Shown here in pieces: positions 54,862-55,332 of a stretch of DNA of 64,000 nucleotides (positions are counted from its first letter, which is position 1; each line of letters opens with the position of its first letter). Position numbers and translations under genes: made by a program. The stretch comes from the human T2T-CHM13v2.0 reference genome, Homo sapiens. The notes under the pieces were generated by a model that ran no database searches, was not told where the DNA came from, and saw only the letters and a program-made list of their open reading frames with translations. The stretch lies in assembly GCF_009914755.1 (NCBI RefSeq), contig NC_060943.1; one strand, given 5' to 3'.

Positions 54862-55332
54862 TTTTTGTTTGTTTGTTTGTTTTTTGTTTTTTGAGATGGA
54901 ATTTCACTCTTGTTGCCCAGGCAGTGAGCTTAGATTGCCACACTGCACTCCAGCCTAGGCAACAGAGCGAGACTCCATCGCAAAAACAAACAGCCCTATG
55001 CAGTGCGGGGCCCCAGGCGAGGCTCAGACCCTGCCTCCACGGAGGAGGCACGATCACCCAGACAGCTCTGTGGAGGCAGGGTCTGAGCCTCGCCTGGGGC
55101 CCCGCACTGCCTAGGGCTGTTTGTGATGTGATCTCGGCTCACCGCAACCCCCGTCTCCTGGGTTCGAGCGATTCTCCTGCCTCAGCCTTCCGAGTAGCTG
55201 GATTGTATTTTTAGTAGAGACAGGGTTTCTCCATGTTGGTCAGGCTGGCCTTGAACTCCTGACCTCAAGTGATCCACCCGCCTCAGCCTCCCAAAGTGCT
55301 GGGATTACAGGCGTGAGCCACCGCGCCCAGCC
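54862..55332 (-). mobile_element. Alu disrupted by a ~205-bp templated insertion (54921-55126) and an internal deletion
   Basis: Alu text breaks after ttgcccagg and resumes at tgtgatctcggctcaccgc. Confidence 0.88.
54986..55124. repeat. Inverted repeat: 55-bp arms (54986-55040, 55070-55124), 1 mismatch, 29-nt spacer
   Basis: Arms checked base by base. Confidence 0.93.

What the first reader, a model, noticed from the sequence alone, without database searches (positions are those of the whole stretch)
54921..55126. IL11 3'UTR sequence copied twice, in opposite orientations, into an Alu upstream of GARIN5B, creating a 55-bp-stem palindrome
Seen: the - strand Alu at 54862-55332 is broken by ~205 bp. 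54921-55040 is a direct copy of ~56774-56898 (right end of the IL11 3'UTR Alu plus unique 3'UTR sequence). ~55054-55124 is the reverse complement of ~56844-56914. The result is two 55-bp arms with one mismatch (54999/55111) and a 29-nt loop. Both arms share two differences from the source (cag vs cgg; ggcga vs ggcaa). The host Alu also lacks a ~30-bp internal segment. Inference: this is a template-switching scar (FoSTeS/MMBIR or Pol-theta templated insertion) between inverted Alus ~1.8 kb apart. It lies ~200 bp upstream of the far 5' ATG of GARIN5B and ~750 bp past the IL11 distal polyA signal. It could extrude a cruciform, or in IL11 read-through RNA form a long hairpin (ADAR or Drosha/Dicer substrate) whose small RNAs would be complementary to the IL11 3'UTR, a possible cis feedback loop.
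Basis: partly seen in the sequence, partly recalled or inferred. Interest (0 to 1): 0.8.

Follow-up and report, generated by a model that had tools for sequence, protein, structure and literature searches.

The report
Old repair scar forming DNA palindrome
A 204-base patch copied forwards and then backwards from the nearby IL11 3'UTR was pasted into an Alu repeat upstream of GARIN5B millions of years ago, leaving a near-perfect hairpin-forming palindrome that looks like an ordinary DNA-repair scar with no sign of a working gene.

Summary
A single minus-strand Alu (54861-55332, flanked by the 9-nt target-site duplication AGCCTGGAG) is interrupted by 204 bp (54921-55124). Bases 54921-55040 are a forward copy of 56774-56898 (IL11 3'UTR Alu tail plus unique flank). 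Bases 55041-55124 are the reverse complement of 56844-56927. This gives 55-nt arms with one mismatch and a 29-nt loop (or 59-nt arms with a 21-nt loop). The sequence occurs nowhere else in the genome. The host lost about 11 bp. Junctions carry 2, 3 and 2 nt of microhomology, and there is no polyA tail and no new target-site duplication. Copy and source differ at 8 of 165 non-loop sites, so this is an old event and not an assembly artefact.

The best reading is a multi-switch templated insertion at a break or stalled fork in the Alu. This architecture (two overlapping fragments from one locus, inverted) is already described in yeast, and it is akin to primate template-switch mutations. The shared arm differences do not require homogenisation.

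The proposed function (cruciform, small-RNA feedback on IL11) has no support here. Rfam gives only sub-threshold generic hairpin hits, and the site lies in no annotated transcript. It is a new member of a known kind, of modest interest.

The parts
54852..54860 (.). Left copy of the host Alu's target-site duplication (AGCCTGGAG)
   Evidence: Exact 9-mer found at 54852-54860 and 55333-55341 (flanks shown)
54861..54920 (-). Host Alu, 3' part (T-rich tail plus the last ~28 nt of the Alu body), left of the break
   Evidence: aligns with the source Alu tail (pair I8, 87% complementary)
54921..55040 (+). Segment A: forward copy of 56774-56898 (Alu tail, A-rich tail, flanking repeat and unique IL11 3'UTR)
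   Evidence: families D2 and D3. 5 substitutions in 110 ungapped positions plus a 5-nt shorter A-tail
54986..55040 (+). Left arm of the palindrome (55 nt, 67% G+C)
55041..55069 (+). Loop: reverse complement of 56899-56927, the first part of inverted segment B. 5 of 29 positions differ from the source, clustered opposite 56915-56923
   Evidence: The loop 25-mer is unique in the genome at <=2 mismatches
55070..55124 (+). Right arm of the palindrome: reverse complement of 56844-56898 (55 nt, 69% G+C)
   Evidence: pairs I3 and I5; (3 of 55 differ from the source, 1 of 55 from the left arm)
55125..55332 (-). Host Alu, 5' part, right of the break. It lacks 44 nt relative to the source Alu around the linker
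   Evidence: (pairs I1, I4); Metazoa_SRP match at 55215-55331 on the minus strand
55333..55341 (.). Right copy of the host Alu's target-site duplication
54889..54985 (.). Second, weaker hairpin made by the insertion: host Alu tail pairs with the inserted Alu tail of opposite orientation, directly abutting the main hairpin
   Evidence: Fold of 54855-55135 on the minus strand shows two adjacent stems (-187.8 kcal/mol, z -16). Sub-threshold mir-1285 matches at 54896-54978 on both strands (36.4 and 35.3 bits against a gathering score of 56)
56544..56849 (+). Source Alu inside the IL11 3'UTR exon, inverted relative to the host Alu, about 1.2 kb away
   Evidence: SRP matches at 56544-56660 and 56689-56836, plus strand; pair I1 (125 nt, 90% complementary to the host Alu); flanking CCTATG repeat
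56774..56927 (+). Template region in the IL11 3'UTR: 56774-56898 used forward, 56844-56927 used inverted, with a 55-nt overlap

Best explanation
This is a fossil of one complex, DNA-templated repair or replication event in the primate germline, and it is most likely a neutral scar.

A break or stalled fork arose inside the minus-strand Alu upstream of GARIN5B. That Alu lies inverted to the Alu in the IL11 3'UTR, 1.2 kb away. Instead of rejoining directly, the broken ends (or the disengaged nascent strand) primed by 2-nt microhomology on the IL11 3'UTR. Read outward from each side of the break, the new DNA has the same sense. From the left end it is 56774 to 56898. From the right end it is 56844 to 56927. 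Two same-sense extensions cannot anneal along their length, so they were joined through a 3-nt microhomology (GAG/CTC). The 55 nt copied by both became the two arms. The 29 nt copied only from the right became the loop. Eleven host bases were lost.

An equivalent description is three serial template switches (host to source, source strand to the opposite strand 29 nt away, source back to host), as in FoSTeS/MMBIR.

Shown here: the anatomy, the source, the direction of copying, the microhomologies, the target deletion and the divergence. Inferred: the break, the enzymes, the role of Alu-Alu pairing, the age (roughly 10-30 million years) and neutrality.
For: Template identity and direction. The copy shares 7 changes specific to the IL11 Alu, judged against the majority of 64 other Alu matches in the window (69 matches found; 5 dropped because they lay in the source or in the host/insert). 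It carries that Alu's A-tail and flanking repeat into unique 3'UTR. The sequence exists only at these two places in the genome.

One Alu, broken later. A 9-nt target-site duplication brackets 54861-55332.

Repair-type junctions. The outer junctions share GC and AC with the source. The inner junction shares GAG. About 11 host bases are missing. The insert ends carry no polyA tail and no new target-site duplication.

Not an artefact. 8 of 165 non-loop positions and 5 of 29 loop positions differ from the source, and the A-tail length differs.

Entry points. The templates begin at 56774 and 56844. These lie 20-40 nt either side of the source-Alu position homologous to the host break (about 56796-56807; pair I4). 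This fits Alu-Alu pairing bringing break and template together.

Same architecture shown experimentally in yeast. In PMC11724301 section 19, complex insertions at double-strand breaks are commonly two fragments from one locus in inverted orientation. They overlap by a median of 50 bp, with a median of 2 bp of microhomology to the break ends and longer microhomology at the inner junction.

Common in primates. Template switching that creates whole hairpins in one event is reported for over 6,000 primate loci (abstract of PMC10710096).
Against: No primate or other human assembly could be consulted, so the single-event claim, the age and fixation are untested.

One shared arm difference (56850: CpG in the source, CpA in both arms) is more easily read as a change in a common ancestor of the two arms. 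That would favour a two-step history or later arm-to-arm correction.

The loop is more diverged than the rest (5/29 against 8/165; Fisher P = 0.029; a test chosen after seeing the data). This needs an extra assumption: error-prone synthesis next to the switch, or higher mutability of a loop.

The ancestral host sequence at the break is inferred from other Alus, so microhomology lengths could be off by a base or two.

The geometry fits an RNA template (IL11 transcript) equally well.
Confidence: 0.65

Rival explanations
1. Two-step history. A simple forward templated insertion of about 56774-56927 came first. Later a local template-switch mutation (or fold-back) replaced its right end with an inverted copy and so created the palindrome.
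For: Both arms share two differences from the source (56850 and 56877). At 56850 the source has the CpG, so the arms' A looks derived and shared. The arms are closer to each other (1/55) than to the source (3/55 each). Local switches that create hairpins or invert their loops are documented (PMC10710096 section 5).
Against: It needs two rare events at one spot. The second would have to return exactly at the host junction. The distances do not reject a star tree (Poisson P = 0.25). The 56877 difference is most simply CpG decay in the source, which fits either model.
Confidence: 0.17
2. RNA-templated patch. Both break ends primed on an IL11 transcript and were extended by a reverse transcriptase. 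This resembles L1 twin priming (recalled) or the break-patch class (class 2) of templated sequence insertions.
For: Read from each break end, the new DNA is the cDNA sense of the minus-strand IL11 3'UTR RNA, and synthesis runs towards the RNA's 5' end (derived). The whole template lies inside the IL11 3'UTR exon (hub annotation). PMC5110952 has a section headed 'TSIs are derived from RNA', which I did not read; its abstract describes class 2 insertions as double-strand-break repair with a DNA patch from a distant region (outline and abstract only).
Against: L1 hallmarks are absent: no target-site duplication, no terminal polyA, no TTTT/A target. The template lies only 1.8 kb away in cis and inside an inverted Alu partner, which a DNA mechanism explains and a diffusible mRNA does not. 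The copy contains no splice junction to decide the matter. Germline IL11 expression is not established (recalled).
Confidence: 0.1
3. Functional hairpin locus. Read-through IL11 RNA or GARIN5B upstream antisense RNA folds into the long hairpin. It is edited or diced, and the resulting small RNAs are antisense to the IL11 3'UTR (cis feedback). Alternatively, the DNA palindrome acts on the GARIN5B promoter.
For: The hairpin is extremely stable on either strand. In a transcript of either strand, one arm is antisense to 56844-56898 of the IL11 mRNA with 3 mismatches in 55. It lies 241-379 bp upstream of the GARIN5B start of transcription. Template-switch hairpins have become miRNA genes (PMC10710096 abstract).
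Against: The site is in no RefSeq exon or intron (hub table). None of the 17 Rfam matches over the palindrome (14 families, both strands) reaches its gathering score; the best is mir-1269 at 52.7 bits against 100, a pattern typical of any long perfect hairpin. The 55-59 bp stem is far longer than the ~35-bp stem preferred for pri-miRNA (introduction of PMC10710096). Arm conservation is no better than neutral expectation. Two literature searches found nothing on this locus.
Confidence: 0.04
4. Assembly or sequencing artefact (a chimeric fold-back read incorporated into the assembly).
For: Fold-back chimeras are a known long-read artefact (recalled). No raw reads could be examined.
Against: An artefact would copy the source exactly. 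Here there are 13 substitutions and an A-tail length difference against the source, and one arm-to-arm mismatch. The host Alu shows a clean 11-bp loss with microhomology.
Confidence: 0.01

Closest known systems
'Distant inverted insertions' at double-strand breaks in yeast rad27 and RPA mutants (PMC11724301; abstract and sections 19-20 read)
   Same: Two fragments from one donor locus are inserted in opposite orientation. They partly overlap (median 50 bp there, 55 bp here), with a short gap between the inner junction points (2-20 bp or 30-119 bp there, 29 nt here). Microhomology to the break ends is about 2 bp, and the inner junction is microhomology-mediated.
   Different: That work concerns yeast, induced breaks and mutant backgrounds. 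This is a natural germline event in a primate. The donor here is in cis, 1.8 kb away, inside an inverted Alu partner. Inner microhomology here is 3 nt (median 6 there).
Template-switch mutations that create hairpins and new miRNA genes in primates (PMC10710096, abstract and sections 5 and 13 read; PMC8794818, search listing and start of abstract only)
   Same: A replication or repair switch to the opposite strand creates a complete, perfectly paired hairpin in one step. The inverted fragment is >=15 nt and >=80% identical.
   Different: Those events are described as reciprocal switches found by comparing a locus with its own inferred ancestor; the template distance was not stated in what I read. 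Here both fragments are imported from 1.8 kb away into a different element. The stem is 55-59 bp, not miRNA-sized. No miRNA is annotated here. The parent-child reconstruction that defines such a call could not be done.
MMBIR-type templated insertions and FoSTeS/MMBIR complex rearrangements (PMC8421209, abstract and passages read; FoSTeS/MMBIR models and DUP-TRP/INV-DUP recalled)
   Same: Microhomology-primed template switching, inverted copying of a nearby template, and inverted repeats as facilitators.
   Different: As detected in PMC8421209, these insertions are inverted copies of a template within 100 bp. This one is 204 bp, has two fragments, and its template is 1.8 kb away. Disease-associated FoSTeS events are kilobases to megabases in size.
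Polymerase theta templated insertions (PMC7165422 seen in search listing only; details recalled)
   Same: Short microhomology, templated filler from flanking DNA, and a small deletion at the break.
   Different: Typical fillers are a few to a few tens of bases (recalled). 204 bp in two long tracts is far outside that range, so a more processive polymerase is likelier.
L1 twin priming and class 1 templated sequence insertion polymorphisms (PMC5110952 abstract; twin priming recalled)
   Same: Both ends prime on one template strand and give a direct-plus-inverted structure.
   Different: There is no target-site duplication, no terminal polyA and no TTTT/A target.

Membership tests
Complex templated insertion at a DNA break (two inverted fragments from one locus) | The inserted DNA has an identifiable template elsewhere in the genome | tested here: met
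   template 56774-56927, the only other place in the genome. 7 changes specific to that Alu are shared
Complex templated insertion at a DNA break (two inverted fragments from one locus) | [quoted passage not shown] | tested here: met
   Forward 56774-56898 and inverted 56844-56927, with a 55-nt overlap
Complex templated insertion at a DNA break (two inverted fragments from one locus) | Short microhomology at the junctions; small loss at the target; no target-site duplication or polyA | tested here: met
   GC, GAG and AC at the three junctions, and about 11 bp lost. The ancestral host sequence is inferred from other Alus
Complex templated insertion at a DNA break (two inverted fragments from one locus) | Arose in a single repair event | not testable with these tools
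   Needs primate genomes, and none is reachable here
Template-switch mutation (four-point model) | Inverted fragment >=15 nt, >=80% identical, explaining >=5 mismatches between inferred parent and child sequences | tested here: inconclusive
   Length and identity are met (55-84 nt, 90-98%). No parent sequence is available for the comparison described in PMC10710096 section 13
Canonical miRNA gene | Match to a curated family at its gathering score | tested here: not met
   0 of 17 matches over the palindrome reach gathering; the best is 52.7 bits against 100
Canonical miRNA gene | Stem of about 35 bp with an apical loop of 10 nt or more | tested here: not met
   The stem is 55-59 bp. The loop criterion is met. 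The criterion is taken from the introduction of PMC10710096
Canonical miRNA gene | Lies in a transcribed region and yields ~22-nt reads | not testable with these tools
   The hub annotation places it between the IL11 3' end and the GARIN5B start, in no annotated transcript. No expression data are available
L1-mediated retro-insertion (class 1 templated insertion, twin priming) | Target-site duplication, terminal polyA, TTTT/A target | tested here: not met
   None is present at 54920/54921 or 55124/55125. The criteria are from the abstract of PMC5110952
Cruciform-prone fragile palindrome (PATRR type; criteria recalled) | Long, AT-rich arms with little or no spacer | tested here: not met
   The arms are 55 nt and 67-69% G+C, with a 21-29 nt spacer

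The most novel reading that the evidence does not exclude
The insertion created, in one step, a double hairpin that is transcribed in IL11 read-through RNA or GARIN5B upstream antisense RNA. One arm is antisense to the IL11 3'UTR, so editing or dicing of the 55-59 bp duplex would give a primate-specific, self-targeting regulator of IL11. That would be a gene acquiring an antisense hairpin against its own 3'UTR by templated repair.
Probability: 0.04. Interest if true: 0.7.

Novelty: new member of a known kind. Interest (0 to 1): 0.3.

Why it matters
This is a clean, fully resolvable natural example of a two-fragment inverted templated insertion in the human germline lineage. All three junctions are readable and an inverted Alu pair is the likely facilitator. 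It links an architecture defined experimentally in yeast to primate genome evolution. It also shows how a near-perfect palindrome can appear at once beside a medically important cytokine gene.

For IL11 and GARIN5B biology it matters only if the hairpin proves to be transcribed or to affect the GARIN5B promoter. Nothing here suggests that. Practically, the palindrome and its triplicated 55-mer can confuse read mapping, PCR and guide or primer design around the IL11 3'UTR.

Tried and rejected

(2) Primate or other human assemblies: no tool reaches them. Dating, polarity at 56850 and 56877, and polymorphism stay open.

(3) A third template for the diverged loop. The 19-mer at 55041-55059 matches nothing else in the window at <=3 mismatches. 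The 25-mer at 55041-55065 matches nothing else in the genome at <=2 mismatches (reversed-pattern control 0). The loop differences are therefore mutations or synthesis errors, not a further switch that can be identified.

(4) A known RNA family. Of 31 Rfam matches at E<=1 in 54300-57700, only 2 reach gathering. Both are the signal-recognition-particle model matching Alu left monomers.

(5) Arm homogenisation or selection on pairing: not needed.

(6) A repeat-family origin of the 'unique' IL11 sequence: rejected.

(7) Literature on this locus. 'IL11' + 'FAM71E2' gave 1 unrelated paper. 'IL11' + 'inverted repeat' + 'untranslated region' + 'Alu' gave 3 general reviews. GARIN5B was not searched under its new name alone.

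(8) The supplementary table of PMC10710096 was listed but not opened, and its PDF supplements cannot be read here. They list miRBase loci and might not cover an unannotated hairpin.

Full report
WHAT IS THERE. The plus strand between 54861 and 55332 is a minus-strand Alu. Its T-rich tail starts at 54861 and its 5' end is at 55332. The same 9-mer, AGCCTGGAG, sits immediately outside both ends (54852-54860 and 55333-55341). It therefore entered as one element with a target-site duplication. It is now interrupted by 204 bp (54921-55124).

- Segment A (54921-55040) is a forward copy of 56774-56898. That stretch covers the last ~76 nt of the plus-strand Alu in the IL11 3'UTR, its A-rich tail, its flanking repeat and unique 3'UTR (families D2 and D3).
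- Segment B (55041-55124) is the reverse complement of 56844-56927 (pair I3).
- The 55 nt present in both segments form the arms (54986-55040 and 55070-55124, one mismatch at 54999/55111).
- The 29 nt present only in segment B form the loop. Three more pairs from the junction microhomology extend the stem to 59 nt with a 21-nt loop (pair I5).

IS IT MORE THAN CHANCE, AND IS IT REAL? The minus-strand RNA of 54960-55150 folds at -150.6 kcal/mol (z -14.6). The plus-strand DNA folds at -89.4 kcal/mol (z -18.0). In each case 0 of 200 shuffles did as well. Among 8 close inverted pairs listed in the whole 64-kb window, it is the only one at or above 90% complementarity. A search of the window's own 3.1-Gb genome with the 139-nt palindrome found only the palindrome and the IL11 3'UTR (with the tool's caveat that only the best candidates are scored). 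The 'unique' part is therefore not a dispersed repeat.

Copy and source differ at 8 of 165 non-loop positions and 5 of 29 loop positions, and in A-tail length. A chimeric-read artefact would be identical to its source, so I regard the structure as genuine and old.

WHICH IS SOURCE AND WHICH IS COPY? The IL11 site holds a complete Alu with its own flanking repeat (CCTATG at 56537-56542 and 56853-56858). I compared the Alu part with the majority of 64 other Alu matches in the window (69 found; 5 dropped because they lay in the source or in the host/insert). The copy shares 7 departures from that majority with the IL11 Alu. It therefore came from this Alu and no other.

- At 56781 the source is derived (52 of 53 other Alus have the copy's G).
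- At 56833 the copy is derived (47 of 50 have the source's T).
- At 56793 both differ from the commonest base, C.

Changes have thus accrued on both lineages since the event.

JUNCTIONS. Relative to other Alus and to the source Alu, the host lacks about 11 bases at the break. In Alu sense these correspond to source 56796-56806.

- At the left junction, host and source share GC.
- At the right junction they share AC.
- At the centre, the forward tract stops after 56898 and the inverted tract begins at 56927. The sequences that would have followed share GAG.

The insert ends carry no polyA tail, there is no new target-site duplication, and there is no TTTT/A target. These are features of end joining or template switching, not of retrotransposition.

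MECHANISM (INFERENCE). Read outward from each side of the break, the added DNA has the same sense. From the left 3' end it is 56774 to 56898. From the right 3' end it is 56844 to 56927. Both ends, or one nascent strand in three successive switches, therefore copied the same strand of the IL11 3'UTR in the same direction. Two same-sense extensions cannot anneal, so they were joined through 3 nt of microhomology. That automatically makes a palindrome from whatever both had copied.

The template entry points lie 20-40 nt on either side of the source-Alu position homologous to the host break. Host and source Alus are inverted, 1.2 kb apart and 90% complementary over 125 nt (pair I1). I take this as a hint that Alu-Alu pairing caused the stall or break and held the template close.

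The five loop differences cluster within 9 nt next to the inner junction (5/29 against 8/165; Fisher P = 0.029; a test chosen after seeing the data). No alternative template exists for them. Low-fidelity synthesis next to a switch (a property of MMBIR that I recall and did not check) or higher mutability of an unpaired loop would explain this. I cannot tell which.

AGE (INFERENCE). Non-loop divergence is 4.8% (Poisson 95% interval 2.1-9.6%). Against recalled genome-wide human-orangutan (~3%) and human-macaque (~6%) divergences, this suggests roughly 10-30 million years. The interval is wide and is biased upward by the 8 CpGs in the insert.

THE SHARED ARM DIFFERENCES. Both arms differ from the source at 56850 and 56877. 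With only three sequences this is the same as two changes on the source lineage. At 56877 the arms keep a CpG that the source has as CpA, which is simple CpG decay in the source. At 56850 the source has the CpG, which fits a change in a common ancestor of the arms slightly better. That would mean a two-step history or arm-to-arm correction. One mismatch in 55 between the arms is not significantly fewer than expected (P = 0.25). Homogenisation is therefore possible but not required.

FUNCTION. In a minus-strand transcript the arm from 55070-55124 is antisense to IL11 mRNA positions 56844-56898 with 3 mismatches in 55. In a plus-strand transcript the arm from 54986-55040 is antisense to the same stretch, also with 3 mismatches in 55. 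But nothing indicates use.

- By the hub's RefSeq table the site lies between the IL11 3' end (55867) and the GARIN5B start (54745), in no annotated transcript.
- Over the palindrome, Rfam gives 17 matches from 14 different families on both strands. All are far below their gathering scores; the best is mir-1269 at 52.7 bits against 100. Any long perfect hairpin would produce this pattern.
- The stem is much longer than the ~35 bp preferred by the miRNA pathway (introduction of PMC10710096).
- As DNA, 67-69% G+C arms with a 21-29 nt spacer are poor candidates for cruciform extrusion (recalled biophysics). Hairpins on single-stranded DNA remain possible.

COMPARISON WITH WHAT IS KNOWN. The closest described architecture is the 'distant inverted insertion' seen at induced breaks in yeast rad27 and RPA mutants. 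There, two fragments from one locus are inserted in inverted orientation. Median overlap is 50 bp, microhomology to the break ends is about 2 bp, and microhomology at the inner junction is longer (PMC11724301 section 19). The same paper shows experimentally that single-stranded DNA can fold back and be captured (section 20).

In primates, template switching is reported to have produced over 6,000 hairpins and at least 18 human miRNA genes (abstract of PMC10710096). Those are local switches inferred from ancestral reconstruction (sections 5 and 13). MMBIR-type insertions as detected in human genomes are inverted copies of templates within 100 bp (PMC8421209, passage). The present case differs in importing two long tracts from 1.8 kb away into another element.

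It fails the defining features of L1-mediated insertion (abstract of PMC5110952). Two searches found nothing in print on this locus.

VERDICT. The proposed function is unsupported. This is a new member of a known kind. It is a neat textbook-quality example but not a surprise to a specialist.

Noticed in passing
window 54889-54985: The insertion also placed an Alu tail of opposite orientation next to the host Alu tail. This makes a second, imperfect hairpin that directly abuts the main one, so the locus is a tandem double hairpin. Sub-threshold matches to the mir-1285 model occur on both strands.
   Followed up: partly
window 56146-56273 and 56540-56667: The IL11 3'UTR exon itself contains an inverted pair: a partial minus-strand Alu and the plus-strand source Alu. 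They are 128 nt long, 76% complementary and 266 nt apart (pair I2). Such a pair is a possible double-stranded RNA and editing substrate within the mature mRNA.
   Followed up: no
window 55201-55203 (host Alu) against 56673-56717 (source Alu): The host Alu lacks 44 nt around the A-rich linker and the start of the right monomer relative to the source Alu. This is a separate internal deletion, unrelated in position to the 204-bp insertion.
   Followed up: partly
window 54648-54716, minus strand: The ATG at 54716 in the GARIN5B 5'UTR opens a 23-codon upstream reading frame. It is in the same frame as the annotated start at 54551 but is closed by a stop.
   Followed up: partly
window 14669-15310 and 18520-18932: There are two long close inverted repeats within the TMEM150B gene span: 260-nt arms at 83% with 122 nt between them, and 186-nt arms at 88% with 41 nt between them. 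They are probably inverted Alu pairs, but this was not checked.
   Followed up: no
window 56915-56923 against 55045-55053: Five substitutions fall within 9 nt of the loop, next to the inner junction, against about 5% divergence elsewhere. No alternative template exists in the genome.
   Followed up: partly
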